In this document: positions 190 to 40,060 of the stretch, one piece after another
Position numbering within the stretch: position 1 is the stretch's first letter
Layout of the letters: each line of letters opens with the position of its first letter
Sequence record: NC_048071.1
Source of the DNA: Escherichia phage IMM-002
DNA length: 40,060 bases
Reading direction: 5' to 3' (one strand)
Position numbers and translations under genes: made by a program
The notes under the pieces: model-generated
Databases searched by the model: none
Told to the model about the DNA's origin: nothing
The model's input: the letters and a program-made list of their open reading frames with translations, nothing else

Positions 190-210
190 ATCTGTATCGA
201 CCTAATGTCA

Positions 211-305
211 ATCACCTACAGTCAACCAGCCTACAGTCTCACTACCTACAGTCATCTACCATCGGTAAAGCCATCACCTACAGCCAATAGACCTACAGTC
301 ACCAG
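211..305. repeat. Array of about 5 short direct repeats (A)CCTACAG(T/C)C next to the left DTR
   Basis: Copies at about 215, 230, 244, 277 and 292; analogous in position to the short repeats flanking the T7 terminal repeat. Confidence 0.6.
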
Positions 306-3398: not shown

Positions 3399-3421
3399 AC
3401 TAAACTATCACTAAAGGACTC
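3399..3421 (+). promoter_or_regulatory. Phage-type promoter variant (TAAACTATCACTAAAGGAC) upstream of the RNAP gene
   Basis: Matches the phage promoter core except A at -2; predicted +1 G at 3416. Confidence 0.5.
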
Positions 3422-3496
3422 AAGGTCGAAAGACTCTAAGTCAGGACTGAAGTGAAAGACTTTAGTGATAAGACAACAGTTATAAGGACTTTAAGT

Positions 3497-14019: not shown

Positions 14020-14037
14020 GCTATCACTGTAGGATAG
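14015..14037 (+). promoter_or_regulatory. Phage RNAP promoter (phi4.7-equivalent)
   Basis: CTAAGCTATCACTGTAGGATAG, +1 about 14032. Confidence 0.7.
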
Positions 14038-14076
14038 ACTCAAGGTCATTCACTTCGAGTGGCCTTTATGATTAGA
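14035..14076 (+). promoter_or_regulatory. Conserved stem-loop, candidate RNase III site (R4.7-equivalent)
   Basis: TAGACTCAAGGTCAT-TCACTTCGAGTGG-CCTTTATGATTAG; lower stem GGUCAU/AUGAUU, upper stem CACU/AGUG around a UCG loop. Confidence 0.5.
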
Positions 14077-14090
14077 CTATAGGAGACATT

Positions 14091-17883: not shown

Positions 17884-18006
17884 TCTACTGGGCCGGACTT
17901 CTGGCCCTTTACGCGATGTACGCAATCAGTGGGTCTAACCGACCGAAGCACTGAGTCTAACCGATAGTCATAACCTATCGTTCTACTGGCCATCTATAGG
18001 TGAAAC

Positions 18007-18029
18007 ACTAAACTATCACTATAGGGACT
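18007..18029 (+). promoter_or_regulatory. Phage RNAP promoter (phi6.5-equivalent)
   Basis: CTAAACTATCACTATAGGGAC, +1 about 18024. Confidence 0.85.
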
Positions 18030-18091
18030 TTAGGACCTAAGTTATGACTATAAGATAGACTTAAGTTAATACTTTAAGAGGAGACTTTAAG

Positions 18092-26213: not shown

Positions 26214-26237
26214 CTTATTGATTGGCCTATAGATTCA

Positions 26238-26260
26238 CCTTAACTATCACTATAGGGACT
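26238..26260 (+). promoter_or_regulatory. Phage RNAP promoter (phi13-equivalent)
   Basis: CCTTAACTATCACTATAGGGAC, +1 about 26255; leader shares TACTTTAAGAGGAGACTTTA with the 18007 promoter leader. Confidence 0.85.
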
Positions 26261-26299
26261 ATAGGCCCTTTAAGTTATAATACTTTAAGAGGAGACTTT

Positions 26300-32600: not shown

Positions 32601-33532
32601 ACATCGTGGAACATAGTCTGACTGGCAGTAAGCGTAAGTTCGATGACCGTTGGTTGAAGACTGCTGGTATCTCCGCTGACCAGTGGAAGGGCATTAAGTC
32701 CCTCATCCGTGAGTCGGTGACTCGTGGTCCAGACGGGAAGTACACCATCAAGGACAAGAAGGCGTTCAGTCAGGACCCAAGGGCTATGGACCTCTGGCGT
32801 ATGGGTGACACCATCGCTGATGAGACCCTGCTTCGTCCGCACAAGCTGAGCAACATGGACGCCAAGGCTTATGGTCCGCTGGCGAAGACTGTCTTGCAGT
32901 TTAAGAACTTCGTCATCAAGTCCATCAACGGTCGAACCATGCGTACCTTCTACAACGCCACCAAGAACAACCGAGCTATGGATGCTGCACTATCAACGGT
33001 TATGTCTATGGGTCTGGCTGGGATGTACTACATGGCTCAGGCGCACATCAAGGCTTACGCTATGCAGGACGGTCGTGACCGTGAGTACCTGAAGCAAGCC
33101 TTGAACCCGACGATGATTGGTTATGCTGCTCTATCCCGTAGCTCCCACTTGGGTGGACCTCTTGGGGTCGCCAACATTCTGGGTGGTATCGCTGGGTATG
33201 AGGACACTAAGTTACTCCGCTCGTCTATCCTTCCGCGCTCACCTACCGAGAAGCCTGAACGTGCCATTACCTATGGTGCTGCGAAGAGTGACCCGGTGAT
33301 GAATGTGGTCGGCAACTTCCTTGAGCAGGTCCCGGCTTTCGGTTATGCTGCTAACGTTGGCGCTTCGGCTTACAACTTGGCTGGCTACCTGAAGTCCGAC
33401 ACCCGTGTGAACGAACGAGACTACATGACCGGGATGTATAACACCTTCCGTGAGCTGGTCCCGAACGACCCTATCACCCAGAAGCTGCTGTTAGGCACCT
33501 TTGAGGAGCAAGGTATTCACATCAAGAACTAA
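29642..33532 (+). CDS. 16: Internal virion protein C/D-like (ejectosome core), with non-T7 N-terminal domain
   Basis: 1296 aa; from about residue 200 collinear with T7 gp16 (TWFGF..AAEAE, TRWN, GAGVDPL, RLEARETARN, RSPTGMQSGASGK, MENPAMFG, KGTYVPHVY, SRPEVKARVDE, DKAYGISH, NFLEARNLFDSD, YNRRVNGDIAIMAG, LRPHK, NNRAMDAALS); first about 130 aa unrelated to the T7 SLT domain. Confidence 0.93.
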   Translation: MATRGIRNNNIGNIRVSKDQWEGATGDDGSFVTFDTPDSGVRALAKNLMSYGRQGYDSIEKIITRWAPPSENDTQSYIQSVASATGIPATQSLDLTDPDVLASLSEAIGYHETGSRYDKSVYQTGVGRALGNGITPKSPPVSANVFDALTEGLKAKPKVALGENLPGVTGLNIEGQEPEAPNESFGEMFYKSTGETLDQRADRSTWFGFGGAAEAEVNNSMVGVAIRAGQTEDSLDVIGDVFNPTRWNNHKWSREELDQIRNAGVLPQYYGVITGGSPQNLTELINLALENQKLDAEKAKAGTGAQLAAGVIGAGVDPLTYVPIAGQVGKGGKLINKMFTVAAQSGALAGASELARTSVAGGDAHVAEAIMGGALFGGGMTAIGDAIGKALGKSTNEFAGPATRLEARETARNVDGQDLSRLPIREGEETFSHQGVKFADVPNEPGSVRLEDGSILIGENPLNPKTRQVFDEVIEPERAAAGVNLGGLTEIGLKLLRSENPEIRGLAADLVRSPTGMQSGASGKIGTTASDVFERLRAVDHRFYNDIDDAVTQALKDPYFQTNFNRDTGAFRQDIYQRVALAIEDGSGNLKAELTPGELKVYGLLKNQFDAKREMMENPAMFGRVDAQSIFPGSRFKGTYVPHVYSNQMKQLFINELGSPEALQEAIKKSWLTSYASRPEVKARVDEALLEANPNLKPEELAAAVDKYANDKAYGISHTDLFERSSVMEENINGLVGLENNNFLEARNLFDSDMSIILPNGQPFNVNSLREWDMDKIVPAYNRRVNGDIAIMAGTGKTTKEMKDTVETMMNRAGDDGKLKGEVATLRDTLKILTGRARRDGADDAAFSTVMRTMTDLSFFAKNAYMGVQNLTEIGGMLARGNVRAMLHGIPMFRDLAFRNKKMGASEIKDLHNVVFGKELDDSIRPSKQDVIDRLRAYSDLSKPVATALGSAKYYTGELAVRSPFTKVLNGTTNYLLDAGRQGFLSDIVEHSLTGSKRKFDDRWLKTAGISADQWKGIKSLIRESVTRGPDGKYTIKDKKAFSQDPRAMDLWRMGDTIADETLLRPHKLSNMDAKAYGPLAKTVLQFKNFVIKSINGRTMRTFYNATKNNRAMDAALSTVMSMGLAGMYYMAQAHIKAYAMQDGRDREYLKQALNPTMIGYAALSRSSHLGGPLGVANILGGIAGYEDTKLLRSSILPRSPTEKPERAITYGAAKSDPVMNVVGNFLEQVPAFGYAANVGASAYNLAGYLKSDTRVNERDYMTGMYNTFRELVPNDPITQKLLLGTFEEQGIHIKN

Positions 33533-33550
33533 ACTATCACTATAGGAACG
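33528..33550 (+). promoter_or_regulatory. Phage RNAP promoter (phi17-equivalent)
   Basis: AACTAAACTATCACTATAGGAACG, +1 about 33545; followed by GGAG-gcttcggt-CTCC hairpin. Confidence 0.85.
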
Positions 33551-33591
33551 GAGGCTTCGGTCTCCACCTATTTTGAATAACAGGAGGTATA

Positions 33592-36390
33592 ATGGCTAAA
33601 ACAACTATCACTCAGTTCCCTGCTGGTCAATCGCAGTATCGAATTGAGTTCGACTATCTGGCTCGACCTTTCGTCGTCGTAACGTTGGTGAACTCCGCCG
33701 ACCAGACGCAGAACAGGGTGCTGAGGGCTGGAGCTGACTATAGGTTCCTGAACCCCACCTTAATCGAGGTTATGATTCCACAGACAGGTTTCGATACCTT
33801 GCAAATTCACCGTCAGACGGACACCGAGCTGATTGTTGGTTTCAGGGACGGCTCAGTTCTTACAGCTAAGGACTTGACAAATGCAGAGCTTCAGGCCATT
33901 CACATCTCGGAAGAGGGTAGGGACCAGACTGTAGACTTAGCGAAGGAATACGCTGACGCTGCCGCCAAAGCGCGAAACGATGCCGAAGACGCCCGTGATA
34001 GCATCGAGCAGGTCATGAAGTCTGGACTGTACGGATACACTCTGGTTGAGGACTTCCAAAAAGGTGCCACATTGTCTCACCCGGCTGAGGCACTTCGCTG
34101 GACACTGCCTGATGGGACGGGAGAATACTACCGCTGGGACGGTGTGTTTCCAAAGGTGGTTCCAGCAGGGTCAACGCCCACATCAGCTGGAGGGGTCGGA
34201 GTTGGTGCTTGGGTATCTATTGGTGACGCATCTCTTCGAGGAAACCTAGCTAACCCAGCCTACGGTGACGGCCTTGTTGCTTCGCAGCTTCCTAACTCCC
34301 CGGTGGCTAGAACAGTCCATGATAAAATGCTAGAAGCTGTGAGCATTGCGGACTATATGGTTGGCGGTGATGTGGCTGGTGCGATAATTGGTGCCCTGTC
34401 CTCCACTGCTGGTCGGGTTAGTGTTCCTGCCGGGAATCACATAGCCACACCTTCCGCAGCGCAAGTGGCTGGCGTACTCTCTGCCCTAAGTAGGCTGAAC
34501 ATTAACGGGTCCTTAACGATTCGTCTCCCTAAGGGAAGGGTTAATCTATCCTCTCCGGTATTGGTGGAGCTGGACGGAGGGAATAACCTAAGCATTGAAG
34601 GACAGCCTAACGTCCCAGTAACCATTACAGGACAAGCGTCTGTCTCTGGGTCTGCTGGAAACTACCAAGTAACCCTTAACGTGTCCTCGACAGCCGGGGT
34701 CTCTGTGGGTGACTTCCTGCATACCAACCAAGCTACAGGCACAGGAGCATGCGACCTTCATCGCGGTGTTTGGGAGATTACCGCTGTTGGGGCAGGGTCT
34801 CTGACTGTCAGGAATACGTGCCAGCTCTCATCCTTCCCGGCTAACACCATAACCTCCAGCTCTAGCCGAGTGCTGACCTCAGTGCTCATGTTTGACCGCT
34901 GCGATGGGTTCATAGTGCCGTCCTCTGAAGTTGGTAACATGAGTAACTTTGTTATCGCAGGTAACTCAGACTCATACTGGAGGGCCTCGGCTGTGGGGAC
35001 TACCGAGCTGGGGACTCATGGTCTGGCTGTAGGCTCAAACACTGTAGCCGTGAACGGTAAGTCAGATAACGTTAACCCTCAAGGTAAGACGGGCGGTAGC
35101 GTGACTTTCGGTCAATACATGGGCGTCTCCGGGTTTGACCAGCAGGGCATTGTTACCGAGCTTGGTGGTAGCTTCTGGGGCGACTTTACTTGCTGCTGTA
35201 ACAACAAGAGACGCGGGTTCTACTCGTCAACTGCATCTGGCATTCGTGCTAAGCAGATTACGGCCAATGGTAACTATCTTGATGGGGTTATTGCGGATAT
35301 TGGCGGAGACATCTACTCGAGCTCTTCTAGCTGCGCCGCAGGTAACGGGTCCTCAGGCATAAGCGCTGCCCATAACGGTTCTGTGATATGGGACGCAGGC
35401 AAGGCCAGCTACAATAAGCTGAATGGTGCCAATGGGGTGGCGGGGGGCTTCCTACAGATGACTGGCTCAACGATGCAGGGTAACTTGGCCACTGGCGCTA
35501 ACCTAGCCTATGGTGCCATCCTCTACTGCGACAACTCCCAGATATCTTTAAACGGAACCTATGGCATTAACTGTCAGCTGGGCTCGGTTGTTCGTGGTCC
35601 TAACTGCACGTATATAGGGAATAACAACCAAGGCATTAGAGGCTCTTACAATGCGACCGTAACCTTTACAGGCTCTACATTCTCTGGTAACTCTGGCGGG
35701 GACTTCCTCTTTACCGCTATGTCTCTTGGCATCTTCGGGAACACTAATTACGGTGGGGATATTGTTGCCACGGACATTAAGTTAGTGAACCAGTCAACTG
35801 GCAAAGGTGTCCGTCTTACTGGGACCTCTGGTGGGGATAACATTGTTATGTCCTATGATGTCACGGGTAATGGGTCCTTTGTCGAGGGTTATAACTTCAG
35901 GTCTGGTGACGTTGGTATCTACCCATCGGATGATGCGGTTCGCAATATTGGACGACCAGCAAACAGGTTTAACATCGGCTTCTTTGCGGGAGGAACACAG
36001 TCTACGTCAGACGCTAGGCTTAAGGACCCTATCAGGGACTTTTCTGAGGCAGAACTCAAGGCGGCTGTCGCCTGTAGTAAATCCTTAGGATTCTGGACTT
36101 GGCTGGACGACGACAGCAAGCGCCTTCATGCAGGGACTACTGTTCAAAGAGTTCTAGAAATCCTAGAGGATAACGGGCTGGATTGGCGTGAGTATGGGTT
36201 CATCGGGTTTGACTCGTGGGAAGATGAGTATAAACCTGTCGTTGCGGAGATTGATGGTATGGAATACGAGACTGGCGAGGTTGTCAAGGTGGTTGAGGCA
36301 GGGTCACTGTGGCAGCTGCGTGACCAAGAGTTTGACAGATTCCTAATCCGTGGACTCTCCGCCCGACTCTCGGCTATCGAGAAGGACTGA
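33592..36390 (+). CDS. 17: Tail fibre / tailspike: T7 gp17-like N-terminal adaptor, Gly/Asn/Ser-rich beta-helix-like central domain, C-terminal intramolecular chaperone (peptidase S74-type) domain
   Basis: 932 aa; N-terminal about 150 aa resemble T7 gp17 ([33 protein letters not shown]); C-terminal [14 protein letters not shown]... fits the SDxRxK autoproteolytic chaperone motif of endosialidase-type fibres; codon usage distinct from rest of genome. Confidence 0.9.
36007..36387 (+). other. Predicted intramolecular chaperone / autoproteolysis domain within the tail fibre (cleavage expected at Ser806)
   Basis: SDARLKDPI motif beginning at codon 806 of the fibre ORF. Confidence 0.6.
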
Positions 36391-36444
36391 CCAGTCGCTT
36401 AACAACTTTGGGTCAAGGACGGCCCGTTTAACAATGGAGGTAGT

Positions 36445-36639
36445 ATGATTGAGTTCGACTTCAAGAATGAGGTCCTCAAAGCCTCGCCTATCGTCGGGAC
36501 CGCTGCGGCTGATGGTGCCAGTCGGTTCTTCTTTGGGTTAACGCTCAACGAATGGTTCTACGTCGCTGCTATCGCGTACACCGTGGTGCAGATTGGCGTC
36601 CTAATTTACAAGACGATTAAGAGCGGAGGTAAGACATGA
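36445..36639 (+). CDS. 17.5: Class II holin
   Basis: 64 aa; KASPIVGTAAADGASRFFFGLTLNEWFYVAAIAYTVVQIG nearly identical to T7 gp17.5. Confidence 0.9.
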   Translation: MIEFDFKNEVLKASPIVGTAAADGASRFFFGLTLNEWFYVAAIAYTVVQIGVLIYKTIKSGGKT

Positions 36640-36899
36640 CGCAGATGGACTTAGAGAAGTTCCTGTTAATGCTGGACACTGAACGTGCTCGACTCATGCT
36701 GCAAGACCTGCGGGATGACTCTAAGCGCTCGCCCCAGCTTTACAACGCCATCGAGAAGCTGTTGGCCCGTCACAACTTTGTGTTGAGCAAGGTGTCGGTG
36801 GACGAGAAGCAGTTGGCTGACATGGAGGCTCTGAACAGAGAGTACGACAAGGTGCTATCAGCTGCCGAAGATAATGACACCGGGTATGGTGTCCAATAA
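36636..36899 (+). CDS. 18: Terminase small subunit
   Basis: 87 aa; FLLMLDTERARLMLQDL, RSPQLYNAIEKLLARHNF match T7 gp18. Confidence 0.9.
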   Translation: MTQMDLEKFLLMLDTERARLMLQDLRDDSKRSPQLYNAIEKLLARHNFVLSKVSVDEKQLADMEALNREYDKVLSAAEDNDTGYGVQ

Positions 36900-36902
36900 G
36901 TG

Positions 36903-36950
36903 TTAGACTCAAGGTCATCTACTACATATAGTGGGTGGCCTTTATGATTA
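36903..36950 (+). promoter_or_regulatory. Conserved stem-loop, candidate RNase III site (R18.5-equivalent)
   Basis: TAGACTCAAGGTCAT-CTACTACATATAGTGGGTGG-CCTTTATGATTAA; same flanking boxes as 6946 and 14035. Confidence 0.5.
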
Positions 36951-37001
36951 ACACTATGCGAGATGCGCTCTCGTGAAATCTGAGAAACAAGGAGGGCAAC
37001 T

Positions 37002-37451
37002 ATGCTCAAACTTTTACGACAGGCCGTCCCTTGGCTGGTGGCAGGACTCCTGTTCTGTTCTGGCTACTGGGTGGCAGACAATAAGTGGGAGGCGAAGGTA
37101 AACAATGAGTACATCACGAAACTTGAAGCAACTGAGCAGTCGAGGCGTTCAGTGCAGTCCGAAGTCAACAAAGTCTCAGCCGAGTGGCAGGACAAGATGT
37201 CCGAGCTGGAAGGCTCTACTGATAGGGTTATTGCTGACCTTAACCGCGATAACAAGCGGCTGCGCGTCAAAGTCAACACCACAGGTATCACCGAGTCAGA
37301 TTACAGTCGATGCTTCCCTGATGGTCGAGTCGAACTACACCCAGAGACTTCTAAAAGTCTTATCCGAATAACGCAGGAAGCAGACCTTAAGGAGAAAGCC
37401 CTTCAGGATACCATACGTAAGCTTCAGCAAGAGAAGGAGGCGAAACCTTGA
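37002..37451 (+). CDS. 18.5: Rz-like i-spanin
   Basis: 149 aa; N-terminal TM ([13 protein letters not shown]), [27 protein letters not shown] and QDTIRKLQ match T7 gp18.5. Confidence 0.9.
37105..37371 (+). CDS. 18.7: Rz1-like o-spanin lipoprotein, embedded in +1 frame within 18.5
   Basis: 88 aa; lipobox-like AITSGC, Pro-rich; aligns with T7 gp18.7 (ISGCAS...VDSSLMVEPN). Confidence 0.85.
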   Translation: MSTSRNLKQLSSRGVQCSPKSTKSQPSGRTRCPSWKALLIGLLLTLTAITSGCASKSTPQVSPSQITVDASLMVESNYTQRLLKVLSE

Positions 37452-39211
37452 GTCAAGACTTAGCGGCGCGTCAGGCGCTTATGACTGCCCGTATGAAGGC
37501 AGACTTCGTGTTCTTCCTGTTCGTCCTGTGGAAAGCTCTGTCCCTACCGGTCCCGACTCGCTGTCAGATTGACATGGCGAAGAAACTATCGGCTGGGGAC
37601 AATAGGCGCTTCATCCTACAGGCGTTCCGTGGTATCGGGAAGTCCTTCATTACGTGTGCCTTCGTGGTCTGGAAGCTATGGAATAACCCGGACTTGAAGT
37701 TCATGATTGTGTCGGCCTCAAAGGAACGAGCCGATGCGAACTCCATCTTCATCAAGCGTATCATTGACCTGATGCCTCAGCTCCAAGAGTTGAAGCCTAA
37801 GCAGGGGCAGCGAGACGCAGTAATCAGCTTCGACGTAGGGCCTGCCAAGCCTGACCACTCACCTTCGGTTAAGTCCGTTGGTATCACTGGTCAGTTAACT
37901 GGTAGCCGTGCGGACATCCTGATTGCCGATGACGTAGAGGTCCCCGGTAACTCAGCGACTCAAGCTGCAAGGGACCGACTGTCTGAGCTGGTGAAAGAGT
38001 TCGACGCAATCCTGAAGCCGGGTGGTACGGTTATCTATCTGGGTACTCCTCAGACCGAGATGACCCTGTATCGTCAGCTTGAGGGTCGTGGTTACTCGAC
38101 TACCATCTGGCCAGCTCGTTACCCGCGTGATGAGAAGGACTGGAAGTCTTACGGCGACCGTCTGGCTCCGATGCTTCAGGCTGAGCTTGAGTCCGACCCT
38201 GAGGGCTACTACTGGCTCCCAACGGATGAGGTCCGCTTCGACGATGAGGACTTGAAGGAACGTGAGCTGTCCTATGGCAAGGCTGGCTTCGCTCTCCAAT
38301 TCATGCTCAACCCGAACCTTGGCGATGCCGAGAAGTACCCGCTGAAGCTGCGTGACCTTATCGTAGCGGACTTGGACCCTGAGTCTAGCCCTATGGTCTA
38401 CCAGTGGCTCCCGAACCTCCAGAACAAGCGTGATGACGTTCCTAACGTGGGACTCATGGGTGACACCTACCACACGTATCAGACTGTAGGTTCTGCTTTC
38501 AGTTCGTACACCCAGAAGATTCTGGTCATTGACCCTAGTGGTCGTGGTAAGGATGAGACGGGTTATGCGGTCCTGTATCAGCTCAACGGCTACATCTTCG
38601 TGATGGAAGCTGGTGGTATGCGCGGTGGCTATGAGGACTCAACGCTGGAGGCTCTGGCGAAGATTGGTCGCAAGTGGAAGGTGAACGAGTACGTCATTGA
38701 GGGTAACTTCGGTGATGGTATGTACCTCGAACTCTTCAAGCCTGTAGCGGCCCGTATTCACCCGGCAGCAGTGACTGAGGTCAAGAGCAAGGGTCAGAAG
38801 GAACTCCGCATCTGCGACGTTCTGGAGCCTATCATGGGGTCTCACCGACTCATCGTGAACTCCTCGACCATTGTGTCTGACTACCAGACTGCTGCTGACA
38901 AGGATGGAGTCCGTAACCCTATCTACTCTCTGTTCTACCAGATGACCCGTATCAGCCGTGAACGTGGAGCCTTGGCACACGATGACCGACTGGATGCTCT
39001 GGCTATCGGTGTACAGTTCTTCGTAGAGTCTATGGCTAAGGATGCCGTGAAGGGCCAGCGTGAAGTTACCGAGGAGTGGCTGGAGGAACAGATGGAAGAC
39101 CCGAAGAAGGGCTTTAAGTCCATCGAGACGGACTACTGGGCCAATGGGGTCCGGGTACAGTTCAATACAGATGATGACTTGGGCTTAGGGTCATACGTTC
39201 AGTTCCACTGA
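37448..39211 (+). CDS. 19: Terminase large subunit
   Basis: 587 aa with TTG start overlapping the 18.5 stop (N-terminus aligns residue-for-residue with T7 gp19); [134 protein letters not shown]. Confidence 0.96.
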
Positions 39212-39305
39212 CCTAATGAATAACTATGGGTGAATACTGCATGAATAAGCGGTTAGTAACCCATAGTTACTAGTGGTCTAACTCTATGATTCTAAAGGCT
39301 TTTGG

Positions 39306-39328
39306 ACTTAACTATCACTATAGGGAAG
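39306..39328 (+). promoter_or_regulatory. Phage RNAP promoter (phiOR-equivalent)
   Basis: GGACTTAACTATCACTATAGGGAAG, +1 about 39323. Confidence 0.8.
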
Positions 39329-39504
39329 ACCCCCGGTTACTTATAGTAAAGACTCAATGAATAAGCATATGCACACTTTATGCAAGACCTTAGGAGGCAG
39401 ACTCCTGAGTTCTTACCTAAGGTTCGCACCGATAGAGGAGGGTGATAATAATCATAATCCCTCCATAACTTAAAGTAGACCATCGCTGACAGGAGGTATG
39501 TAGC

Positions 39505-39663
39505 ATGGGTAAGACCAAAGCTGTTCTCAAAGCTCTGGCGACCAATAGAGCTACGTACAGGTTTCTTGCTGCTGTTCTACTTGCTGCTGGCGTTACTGCT
39601 GGAAGTCAGTGGGTCGGGTGGGTCGAGACTCTCGTATGTACTCTGGTGTCTGAGTGTCATTAA
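39505..39663 (+). CDS. 19.5: gp19.5-like small protein
   Basis: 52 aa (below track cut-off), AGGAGG RBS 8 nt upstream; ...RATYRFLAAVLLAAG... resembles T7 gp19.5 (HRVTYRFLVVLCAALG). Confidence 0.6.
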   Translation: MGKTKAVLKALATNRATYRFLAAVLLAAGVTAGSQWVGWVETLVCTLVSECH

Positions 39664-39693
39664 CGCCATAATGGTAACAATCAACGAAAGCAA

Positions 39694-39820
39694 GACCTAA
39701 GGTCAGTTCATAGCTGACGCTACTCTACTGACCTTAGCTACTGAAGTCAAGACCTACAGTCAACACTATAGAAGCTATGGTCTCTCAGGGTCGTTAGGAC
39801 CTACGGTCTGACCTACGGAT
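39694..39820. repeat. Related short repeats GACCTA(A/C)(A/G)GTC next to the right DTR
   Basis: gacctaaggtcag, tgaccttagcta, gacctacagtcaac, gacctacggtctgacctacgg. Confidence 0.55.
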
Positions 39821-39871
39821 GGGCCTCCTTAAGAGGGACGATGAGTTTTGGACCAAAAGTTCGAGAGTCCA

Positions 39872-40060
39872 TCTCACAGTTCAAGAACCTCAAGTCTCCC
39901 CATAGGGTCACTCTCAGTCCGACTCAAGGCCCTACCCATAGACCTTCGGTCTAAACCTCAAGTCATTGACCCGAAGTCGCCCCGAAGTCTGGACTGATAG
40001 TGCCTATATCTTGTGGTTGGGACGATTGGTCGGGACTATATGTAGTGCCTCTGAGTCTCT
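39872..40060. repeat. Right direct terminal repeat (DTR)
   Basis: Identical to 1..189; window ends inside or at the end of the repeat. Confidence 0.9.

What the first reader, a model, noticed from the sequence alone, without database searches (positions are those of the whole stretch)
39212..39504. Structured region after the terminase gene: perfect 10-bp inverted repeat, AATGAATAA triplicate and hairpins around the right-end promoter
AACTATGGGT (39222..39231) and ACCCATAGTT (39259..39268) form a perfect inverted repeat. AATGAATAA occurs three times (about 39214, 39243, 39356). Hairpins CCTTAGG...CCTAAGG and GGAGGG...CCCTCC follow the promoter at 39306. In T7 the equivalent region holds phiOR and packaging and concatemer-processing signals.
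Basis: partly seen in the sequence, partly recalled or inferred. Interest (0 to 1): 0.35.

Follow-up and report, generated by a model that had tools for sequence, protein, structure and literature searches.

The report
phiOR promoter flanked by RNA hairpins
This is the ordinary right-end promoter region (phiOR) of a T7-like phage of the K1F group. The inverted repeat just after the terminase gene turns out to be an evolutionarily maintained RNA hairpin that no record annotates. It is not a demonstrated DNA packaging signal.

Summary
The window is a complete Kayfunavirus (K1F-like, T7 subfamily) genome with 189-bp terminal repeats. The finding covers the gap between the terminase gene 19 and gene 19.5.

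- The inverted repeat is real and is 11 bp long.
- The phage promoter is real (39306-39328, start at G39323).
- Both downstream hairpins exist.
- Only two of the three AATGAATAA copies are exact.

The promoter is the homologue of phiOR. That promoter is annotated at the same place in EcoDS1, T7, T3, K11 and BA14.

The inverted repeat is a two-tier hairpin (39221-39269). Across 21 distinct sequences from two genera, 96.9% of positions stay paired and 9 of 17 pairs show compensatory changes. One-sided changes are almost all G.U on the sense strand. An invariant GAA/AGUA internal loop has the topology of a bulged-G (loop E) module. This points to RNA, in the 3' UTR of the terminase message.

The GGAGGG/CCCTCC hairpin has counterparts with different arm sequences in many genera. 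CCTTAGG/CCTAAGG never varies, so it gives no structural information.

Better candidates for concatemer-processing signals lie further right (39693-39871, and ATCTGTA after the repeat). The layout is known. The hairpin is a modest new element of unknown function.

The parts
39209..39211 (+). Stop codon of gene 19 (terminase large subunit, 37448-39211)
   Evidence: ORF list. Annotated as terminase large subunit in Pisces, K1F, SH4 and others.
39221..39269 (+). SL1, a two-tier hairpin. Lower stem 39221-39231 / 39259-39269. Internal loop GAA 39232-39234 opposite AGUA 39255-39258. Upper stem 39236-39240 / 39249-39253. Apical loop AUGAAUAA 39241-39248.
   Evidence: Fold z = -4.8 to -5.4. Covariation: 96.9% of cells paired, 9 of 17 pairs changed on both sides, 0 of 500 shuffles reach this. 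A covariance model finds it in SH4-type Kayfunavirus and in BA14-like Berlinvirus, always directly after the terminase stop codon.
39215..39223 (+). AATGAATAA copy 1, overlapping the 5' base of SL1
   Evidence: Exact-match count.
39270..39305 (+). Spacer between SL1 and the promoter. It is the least conserved part and contains GTCTAAC at 39276.
   Evidence: Mean pairwise column identity 0.67. Alignments.
39306..39328 (+). Phage-RNA-polymerase promoter, the phiOR homologue. Start at G39323.
   Evidence: 2 mismatches to a 21-nt consensus template; one of 11 copies, all on the + strand. phiOR is annotated at the same place in EcoDS1, T7, T3, K11 and BA14, and a 'predicted promoter' in CR44b. The -12 to -8 specificity bases switch to CCCTC in Ro103C3lw, MII_002 and EcpYZU01.
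39335..39363 (+). A+T-rich conserved leader block GGTTACTTATAGTAAAGACTCAATGAATA. It contains AATGAATAA copy 3 (39356-39364).
   Evidence: Aligns with the T7 leader GGTTAC-TATA-TAGATACTGAATGAATA; 0 of 500 shuffles score as high. TGAATA is invariant in 34 sequences. GC content here is 36-40%.
39365..39383 (+). Small hairpin GCATA / TATGC
   Evidence: Present in the minimum-energy fold. CATATGCA and CTTTATGC are invariant. T7 has TGCATAAAGTATGCA at the matching place.
39384..39423 (+). H2 region. Arms ACCTTAGG 39387-39394 / CCTAAGGT 39416-39423 compete with a local hairpin at 39384-39414. The right arm belongs to the ACCTA[AC][AG]G short-repeat family that clusters at both genome ends.
   Evidence: The arms are invariant in all relatives, so they give no covariation information. 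Motif positions. Column identity 0.93-0.98.
39437..39464 (+). H3 hairpin GGAGGG-N16-CCCTCC, with inner TGAT/ATCA
   Evidence: Counterparts with other arms: T7 and T3 GGTGAT/ATCACC, K11 AGAGGGT/ACCCTCT, BA14 GGGATG/CATCCC, and also GGTGTT/AACACC and GGTGGTG/CACCACC. Found in 16 of 25 lineage representatives, 11 times the background density.
39492..39507 (+). Ribosome-binding site GGAGG (39492-39496) and ATG (39505) of gene 19.5
   Evidence: Invariant in all relatives, identity 1.0. A ribosome-binding site is annotated in Pisces.
39505..39663 (+). Gene 19.5, a 52-aa small protein and the first gene of the phiOR transcript
   Evidence: ORF. Shares the TYRFL...C..L motif with T7 gp19.5, E = 5e-5. 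Homologues found across the subfamily.

Best explanation
The interval is the gene 19 to gene 19.5 intergenic region of a K1F-like T7-group phage. It is a transcription-unit boundary, not a single device. (1) SL1 (39221-39269) is an RNA hairpin in the 3' UTR of the late message that ends with the terminase gene. Two helices hold an invariant GAA/AGUA internal loop with the topology of a bulged-G (loop E / sarcin-ricin) module. Most likely it marks or protects the 3' end of upstream late transcripts, through processing or as an exonuclease barrier, and offers a protein-recognition surface. In doing so it separates those transcripts from the unit that starts 54 nt downstream. (2) 39306-39328 is the phiOR promoter for the phage RNA polymerase. 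(3) 39323-39504 is the 5' leader of the gene 19.5 message. It has an A+T-rich block shared with T7, an invariant ACCTTAGG/CCTAAGGT pair, and a hairpin (H3) kept in position across genera. Transcripts from phiOR run through gene 19.5 and the terminal repeat. In a concatemer they reach ATCTGTA just beyond the repeat. In T7 the polymerase pauses at the corresponding site, and that pause is tied to terminase action. Shown: sequence features, homology, covariation and conservation. Inferred: that the RNA is made, the role of SL1, and the link to packaging.
For: Genome identity and layout. Promoter: consensus match, one of 11 copies. phiOR is annotated at the same position in five other phages, including a Kayfunavirus. 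The promoter's specificity bases change as a block in three relatives while the transcribed part stays homologous. SL1: stability z = -4.8 to -5.4. Within K1F/window-type sequences, 96.5% of cells are paired and every one-sided change inside a helix is G.U on the + strand. With SH4-type and Berlinvirus homologues, 96.9% of cells are paired, 9 of 17 pairs change on both sides in 32 cells, and 0 of 500 shuffles reach this; slid controls give at most 2. There are 26 G.U cells against 4 C.A cells. GAA and AGUA are invariant. Minus-strand model scores are 12-24 bits against 79-91 on the + strand. Ro103-type, EcpYZU01 and CR44b have unrelated sequences at the same place that still form strong hairpins. 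Leader: homology to the T7 leader; H3 counterparts in many genera. No hairpin-plus-U-run terminator was found within the finding or downstream of it; the few weak terminator-like matches in 33400-39320 are no more than shuffles give, and none lies at SL1. ATCTGTAT directly after the repeat is conserved in every relative whose junction is available. Literature: gene 19.5 is the most abundant late transcript in wild-type T7 (PMC6938266). [quoted passage not shown] T7 RNA polymerase has only two natural terminators, Tphi and the concatemer junction (bioRxiv 10.64898/2026.02.12.705533).
Against: No transcript, cleavage or binding data exist for any part of this. Alignment A5 was fitted to the model's structure and its sequences are related, so the covariation statistics lean towards the structure. 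SL1 has no sequence similarity to the canonical T7-type RNase III sites of this genome. T7, T3 and K11 have only weak, different hairpins there. In some relatives SL1 is replaced or displaced, so it is not indispensable in this form. H2 never varies, and third codon positions of gene 19.5 are 0.94 identical against 0.78 in gene 19; that pattern fits a DNA-level constraint (replication or packaging) that the RNA reading does not explain. H3 is not thermodynamically exceptional (mean z about -1), and its enrichment test used a descriptor written after seeing the data.
Confidence: 0.7

Rival explanations
1. DNA-level packaging or concatemer-processing signals. The inverted repeats would act as cruciforms or protein-binding palindromes that terminase or processing enzymes recognise in duplex or single-stranded DNA.
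For: The region sits 370-660 bp left of the right terminal repeat. H2's arms and the whole stretch 39360-39650 are conserved beyond coding needs. H2's right arm belongs to the terminal short-repeat family. From memory, T7 plasmid-packaging work found that the phiOR region contributes to packaging; I could not verify this. SL1 also folds as single-stranded DNA, z = -4.0.
Against: SL1's one-sided changes keep pairing only on the + strand (26 G.U cells against 4 C.A), which a duplex palindrome would not care about. GAA/AGUA is an RNA-type module. SL1 is swapped for unrelated hairpins and displaced by HNH genes in relatives that package normally. Stronger candidates lie next to the terminal repeat.
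Confidence: 0.12
2. SL1 is specifically a host RNase III processing site, like the R sites of T7. It would cut late polycistronic RNA after gene 19 and leave a stabilising 3' hairpin.
For: SL1 is a two-tier helix with a roughly 4x5 internal loop spanning about 20 base-pair steps. That is the same architectural class and the same stability as the two canonical sites of this genome (14025-14085 and 36898-36962). In T7, R sites commonly sit just upstream of late promoters (own knowledge).
Against: There is no sequence similarity to the canonical GACUCAAGG...CCUUUAUGAUU sites. The stem proportions are inverted: the lower stem is long and the upper stem is only 5 bp with an 8-nt loop. From memory, Dunn and Studier mapped no R site after gene 19 in T7. 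The invariant GAA/AGUA loop is not a known RNase III determinant.
Confidence: 0.25
3. Secondary replication origin. The promoter plus the A+T-rich leader (39335-39385) would act as a transcription-primed origin, as proposed for T7 phiOL and phiOR. The TGAATA repeats and hairpins would be origin features.
For: GC content falls to 36-40% over 39200-39475 against a genome mean of 53%. The A+T-rich block directly after the promoter is conserved with T7. TGAATA-type motifs recur in either orientation in T3, K11 and BA14 leaders. Nucleotide-level conservation exceeds coding needs.
Against: No origin mapping exists for any Kayfunavirus. This reading does not explain SL1 covariation or H3. It is compatible with the main explanation for the promoter and leader, not exclusive of it.
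Confidence: 0.2
4. Chance or relic. The repeats would be leftovers of a duplicated promoter/leader segment with no present function.
For: 39230-39250 and 39346-39366 are a diverged direct repeat (81% over 21 nt). The left arm of SL1 in K1F-type phages reads TAACTATAGG, like a truncated promoter core.
Against: Covariation, invariant loop bases, conservation across two genera and the positional conservation of H3 are not expected of relics.
Confidence: 0.04

Closest known systems
T7 phiOR promoter and gene 19.5 leader (T7 nt 39229-39389). phiOR is also annotated in T3, K11, BA14 and EcoDS1.
   Same: It occupies the same position between gene 19 and gene 19.5, in the same orientation and with similar distances. 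It matches the phage's own promoter consensus. The A+T-rich leader block is homologous to T7's. A hairpin with an A+T-rich loop sits 20-45 nt before the gene 19.5 start. It is followed by the terminal repeat and an ATCTGT motif.
   Different: The promoter specificity is K1F-type (TTAACTATCACTATAGGGA). The leader is longer (182 nt against 160 nt). It carries the invariant ACCTTAGG/CCTAAGGT pair. T7 has no equivalent of the strong SL1 upstream.
T7-group RNase III processing sites (R sites)
   Same: SL1 is a two-tier hairpin with an internal loop, of comparable stability. It lies in a polycistronic late message just upstream of a phage promoter.
   Different: There is no shared sequence and the stem proportions are inverted. 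The internal loop is GAA/AGUA. Cleavage is untested.
Bulged-G (sarcin-ricin / loop E) RNA module
   Same: Strand 5'-GAA-3' faces strand 5'-AGUA-3', bounded on both sides by Watson-Crick pairs in the register of the module: G15.A41, A16.U40, G39 bulged, A17.A38. These bases are invariant while the helices covary. The assignment of topology rests on my own knowledge of the motif.
   Different: The module is known mainly from rRNA, viroids and ribozymes. Here it sits in a phage mRNA 3' UTR. There is no three-dimensional or probing evidence.
T7 concatemer-junction signals (right-end hairpin site, class II pause site)
   Same: The same genome neighbourhood, and the same promoter feeds transcription toward them.
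   Different: Those signals adjoin the terminal repeat. Their likely counterparts here are at 39697-39737, 39846-39858 and 190-196, all outside the finding's interval.

Membership tests
T7-group phage RNA polymerase promoter (phiOR) | About 23 bp matching the phage's own promoter consensus through -17 to +6 | tested here: met
   TTAACTATCACTATAGGGAAG has 2 mismatches to a 21-nt consensus template. It is one of 11 + strand copies and there are none on the - strand. The core CACTATAGGGA occurs 6 times against 0.53 expected.
T7-group phage RNA polymerase promoter (phiOR) | Located between gene 19 and gene 19.5, reading rightward toward the terminal repeat | tested here: met
   Gene 19 ends at 39211, the promoter is at 39306-39328, and gene 19.5 starts at 39505. 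The same layout, with phiOR annotated, is found in T7, T3, K11, BA14 and EcoDS1.
T7-group phage RNA polymerase promoter (phiOR) | Specificity region tracks the polymerase of the phage | tested here: inconclusive
   Three relatives have CCCTC instead of CTATC at -12 to -8 while downstream sequence stays homologous. Their other promoters and polymerases were not examined.
T7-group phage RNA polymerase promoter (phiOR) | Initiation by the phage polymerase at the predicted G | not testable with these tools
   No transcript data for this phage. In T7, gene 19.5 RNA is the most abundant late transcript (PMC6938266).
T7-type RNase III site | Two helices separated by an internal loop, about two helical turns in total | tested here: met
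   11 bp, then a 4/5-nt loop, then 5 bp.
T7-type RNase III site | Sequence relatedness to the canonical sites of the same genome (GACUCAAGG...CCUUUAUGAUU) | tested here: not met
   The motif is found only at 14063 and 36939. The folds of those sites differ in proportions from SL1.
T7-type RNase III site | Cleavage by RNase III | not testable with these tools
   Needs an in vitro assay or a comparison of rnc+ and rnc- hosts.
Hairpin (class I / intrinsic) terminator | G+C-rich hairpin followed by a run of U | tested here: not met
   No terminator-like site in 39000-40060. SL1 is followed by CUAGUGGUCUAAC.
Bulged-G (loop E / sarcin-ricin) module | GAA opposite AGUA, flanked by Watson-Crick pairs, with loop bases conserved while the helices vary | tested here: met
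   GAA (39232-39234) and AGUA (39255-39258) are invariant in 21 distinct sequences of three stem classes.
Bulged-G (loop E / sarcin-ricin) module | Characteristic non-canonical pairs in three dimensions | not testable with these tools
   Needs chemical probing or a solved structure.
T7 packaging / concatemer-junction signals | Adjacent to the terminal repeat: right-end hairpin site just left of it, pause motif just right of it | tested here: not met
   The finding ends 368 bp left of the repeat, which starts at 39872. Candidate signals are at 39697-39737, 39846-39858 and 190-196.
Any Rfam family | Covariance-model match | tested here: not met
   Only two chance-level matches, E = 4.8 and 8.7, far below their gathering scores.

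The most novel reading that the evidence does not exclude
SL1 is an undescribed, protein-recognised RNA element: a hairpin built around a bulged-G module that begins about 10 nt after the terminase stop codon. It is shared by K1F-like and BA14-like phages. On this reading it sets the fate of the late terminase message and gates transcription entering the phiOR unit that feeds the concatemer junction. That would tie the end of late gene expression to genome maturation.
Probability: 0.25. Interest if true: 0.5.

Novelty: new member of a known kind. Interest (0 to 1): 0.33.

Why it matters
K1F-like phages are used against encapsulated E. coli and as engineering chassis. Their right-end control region is usually left unannotated, or is filled with spurious small ORFs, as in the K1F, PH1061 and MII_002 records.

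Placing phiOR correctly matters for genome design, minimal packaging cassettes and transducing phagemids. So does knowing that the hairpin after the terminase gene is a maintained RNA structure, and knowing where the probable processing signals really lie.

The SL1 hairpin is a compact candidate for a protein-binding RNA in a T7-type phage and is easy to test. The gap between gene 19 and phiOR is also a recurrent landing site for HNH endonuclease genes.

Tried and rejected
- **Rfam scan of 38900-40060:** nothing meaningful.
- **Sigma-70 promoter and intrinsic-terminator scans:** no terminator, and promoter-like hits at chance level.
- **Coding reading of the 38-aa ORF at 39357-39473, and of ORFs annotated here in K1F, PH1061 and MII_002:** rejected. 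ATG becomes GTG, and 1-nt indels (CTCC-T-GAG) break the frame between close relatives.
- **RNAalifold on a MAFFT alignment of H3 hairpins from many genera:** I replaced it with a positional descriptor test.
- **Minimum-free-energy z-scores for H3, and for the hairpin after the stop codon outside Kayfunavirus:** mostly not significant, so H3 rests on position and complementarity only.
- **SL1 as a homologue of the canonical RNase III sites:** no shared sequence.
- **Literature:** the T7 packaging papers (Chung and Hinkle 1990) and the K1F genome paper are not held. Searches for 'pacB' returned PacBio papers. No transcript-end map of a K1F-like phage was found.

Full report
**What the window is**

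The 40,060-bp window is a complete linear genome with a 189-bp direct terminal repeat, 1-189 = 39872-40060. It is a K1F-like phage (genus Kayfunavirus, subfamily Studiervirinae). The closest GenBank record is Escherichia phage Pisces, at 94% identity over 85% of a 25-kb query and 100% over 39205-39510. It is also identical, over a 390-nt stretch spanning the finding, to an IMG/VR contig of exactly the same length, 40,060 bp.

The finding covers the gap between the terminase large-subunit gene (gene 19, 37448-39211) and a 52-codon gene at 39505-39663. That small gene is the homologue of T7 gene 19.5: it shares the TYRFL...C..L motif, E = 5e-5, and homologues occur throughout the subfamily.

**Check of the observation**

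- **Inverted repeat.** It is exactly where stated and extends to 11 bp, 39221-39231 / 39259-39269. Only three perfect inverted repeats of at least 11 bp with a 3-60 nt loop exist in the genome. Shuffled genomes average 0.47.
- **AATGAATAA.** It is exact only at 39215 and 39356. The middle copy is CATGAATAA. Even so, three of the genome's four ATGAATAA copies, and four of its thirteen + strand TGAATA copies, fall within 150 nt.
- **Hairpins.** Both downstream hairpins are present: 39387-39394 / 39416-39423 and 39437-39442 / 39459-39464. The first competes with a more stable local hairpin at 39384-39414. The leader as a whole is only modestly structured, z = -2.5.
- **Promoter.** It is real. 39306-39328 matches the phage's own consensus and is one of 11 copies, all on the + strand. 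The start is G39323.

**The promoter is phiOR**

T7, T3, K11, BA14 and the Kayfunavirus EcoDS1 each carry an annotated 'phiOR' between gene 19 and gene 19.5. It lies 80-95 nt after the gene 19 stop codon and 140-180 nt before gene 19.5. CR44b annotates a 'predicted promoter' at the homologous place.

In three relatives (Ro103C3lw, MII_002, EcpYZU01) the -12 to -8 bases read CCCTC instead of CTATC, while homology resumes at the transcription start. That is what one expects if the promoter follows a different polymerase specificity. I did not check the rest of those genomes.

**The inverted repeat is an RNA hairpin (SL1)**

SL1 folds as follows:
- an 11-bp lower stem;
- an internal loop;
- a 5-bp upper stem;
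- an 8-nt loop, AUGAAUAA.

The fold is -22 to -27 kcal/mol, z = -4.8 to -5.4.

Sequence identity across relatives is lower here (0.71) than at third codon positions of gene 19 (0.78), yet the structure is kept.

In 15 distinct K1F/window-type sequences, 96.5% of cells are paired and three pairs change on both sides. One example is A-U, then G.U, then G-C at 39228/39262, with the G.U intermediate present in two contigs. Every one-sided change inside a helix is G.U on the + strand.

A covariance model built from these sequences also found two further groups:
- the SH4-type hairpin, whose lower stem is entirely different (36.5 bits);
- the hairpin directly after the terminase gene of BA14-like phages, a different genus (26-32 bits, E = 8e-5 to 2e-3).

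On the resulting 21 distinct sequences:
- 96.9% of cells are paired;
- 9 of 17 pairs change on both sides, in 32 cells;
- 0 of 500 shuffles reach any of four measures;
- slid controls give at most 2.

There are 26 G.U cells against 4 C.A cells, and all four C.A cells are at one helix-end pair. On the minus strand the G.U pairs would be mismatches, and the model scores the minus strand at 12-24 bits against 79-91.

The unpaired bases GAA (39232-39234) and AGUA (39255-39258) are invariant in all three stem classes. Their arrangement is G.A next to a Watson-Crick pair, then A.U, a bulged G, A.A, and another Watson-Crick pair. From my own knowledge, that is the arrangement of the bulged-G (sarcin-ricin / loop E) RNA module.

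Ro103-type, EcpYZU01 and CR44b have unrelated sequences at this place. In CR44b it follows an inserted HNH gene. All still form a strong hairpin 35-45 nt upstream of the promoter.

Caveats: A5 was aligned to the model, and the sequences are related.

Taken together, this points to a sense-strand RNA element in the 3' UTR of the late terminase message. It does not point to a duplex-DNA signal.

**What SL1 might do**

It is not a hairpin-plus-U terminator. T7 RNA polymerase is reported to have only two natural terminators, Tphi and the concatemer junction (bioRxiv 10.64898/2026.02.12.705533).

Its architecture and stability resemble the two canonical RNase III sites of this genome, at 14025-14085 and 36898-36962. 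It shares none of their sequence, and its stem proportions are inverted.

I therefore commit to a processing or stability element that is probably recognised by a protein. It would define or protect the 3' end of upstream late RNA just before phiOR. RNase III cleavage is a specific sub-hypothesis at about 25%.

Some more distant relatives have a genuine G+C-rich hairpin followed by a U run at this position (L063, L065, L069). That fits the idea that an RNA 3'-end element is wanted here.

**The leader**

- **A+T-rich block.** 39335-39363, which contains the third AATGAATAA, aligns with the T7 leader; 0 of 500 shuffles score as high. The apex of SL1 (ATACTGCATGAATA) matches the T7 leader's ATACTGAATGAATA at 13 of 14 positions (p = 0.006). 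39230-39250 and 39346-39366 form a diverged direct repeat. So the 'triplicate' reflects a duplicated ACTG-N-ATGAATA element, with one copy in SL1 and one in the leader.
- **H2.** The arms never vary in 17 GenBank-derived sequences, so there is no covariation evidence either way. The IMG/VR set was selected with a pattern from this block and cannot be counted. The right arm belongs to the ACCTA[AC][AG]G family. Nine of its 15 + strand copies cluster next to the two terminal repeats.
- **H3.** Counterparts occur at the same distance before gene 19.5 in many genera, with at least ten different arm sequences and A+T-rich loops of 13-19 nt. 16 of 25 lineage representatives have such a hairpin, 11 times the background density. 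I wrote that descriptor after seeing the data, and energies are not exceptional.

**Link to packaging**

Transcripts from phiOR would cross gene 19.5 and the terminal repeat. In a concatemer they would meet ATCTGTAT immediately after the repeat (190-197). This motif is conserved in every relative whose junction is available. It resembles the T7 class II pause motif, ATCTGTT as I recall it, matching 6 of 7 bases.

In T7 the polymerase-lysozyme complex is said to pause at the concatemer junction and to interact with gp18 and gp19 (PMC3276506). Gene 19.5 RNA is the most abundant late transcript in wild-type T7 (PMC6938266).

So the promoter plausibly serves maturation. The repeats listed in the finding are not shown to be packaging signals. 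Better candidates lie to the right:
- an inverted repeat whose 11-bp arms never vary while its loop does (39697-39737);
- a conserved GACGATGAGTTTTGGACCAAAAGTT ending 14 nt before the repeat.

**What the RNA reading does not explain**

The block 39360-39650 is conserved at 0.9-0.99. Third codon positions of gene 19.5 are 0.94 identical against 0.78 in gene 19. This suggests a nucleotide-level constraint, either a DNA element for replication or packaging or a long RNA structure. I leave it open.

**Verdict**

The layout is already known for the T7 group. SL1 is a well-supported, unannotated RNA hairpin of unknown function, found so far in two genera. Interest is modest.

Noticed in passing
window 39697-39737: A perfect 11-bp inverted repeat, CTAAGGTCAGT / ACTGACCTTAG, lies after gene 19.5. 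It is one of only three such repeats in the genome. Its arms are invariant in all Kayfunavirus relatives while the 19-nt loop differs between groups. It may be the counterpart of the T7 right-end hairpin site.
   Followed up: partly
window 39836-39871: GACGATGAGTTTTGGACCAAAAGTT, which contains the near-palindrome TTTTGGACCAAAA at 39846-39858, is highly conserved and ends 14 nt before the terminal repeat.
   Followed up: partly
window 190-197 (and, in a concatemer, directly after 40060): ATCTGTAT follows the terminal repeat immediately. It is conserved in every relative whose junction sequence was available, and it resembles the T7 class II pause/termination motif.
   Followed up: partly
window 39505-39663: Gene 19.5 is conserved at synonymous sites: third codon positions are 0.94 identical against 0.78 in gene 19. 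This suggests an overlapping nucleotide-level element.
   Followed up: partly
L002 728-1144; L044, L047, L092, L095, L099, L103, L111 (just after the gene 19 stop): HNH endonuclease genes are inserted immediately downstream of the terminase stop codon in several Kayfunavirus, T7-like, K11-like and BA14-like phages. This gap is a recurrent landing site.
   Followed up: partly
window 3401-3470: The promoter-like copy at 3401 (TAAACTATCACTAAAGGAC) is followed 54 nt later by the exact reverse complement of TATCACTAAAG (3406 / 3460). This gives a third perfect 11-bp inverted repeat, built from promoter sequence.
   Followed up: no
window 17994-18030 and 26227-26265: Extra CTATAG copies lie 10-25 nt upstream of two other promoters. 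Because CTATAG is self-complementary, they can pair with the promoter core in read-through RNA. GTCTAAC also recurs upstream of three promoters (17933/17955, 26208, 39276).
   Followed up: no
window 200-300 and 39690-39820: Arrays of ACCTA[AC][AG]G short repeats flank the inner sides of both terminal repeats, like the short repeats at the ends of T7 DNA.
   Followed up: partly
L001 1225-1329; L013 1237-1353 and 1376-1483; L007 1160-1393: GenBank records of K1F, PH1061 and MII_002 annotate small 'hypothetical proteins' across SL1, the promoter and the leader. Frame-breaking indels between relatives indicate that these are not genes.
   Followed up: partly
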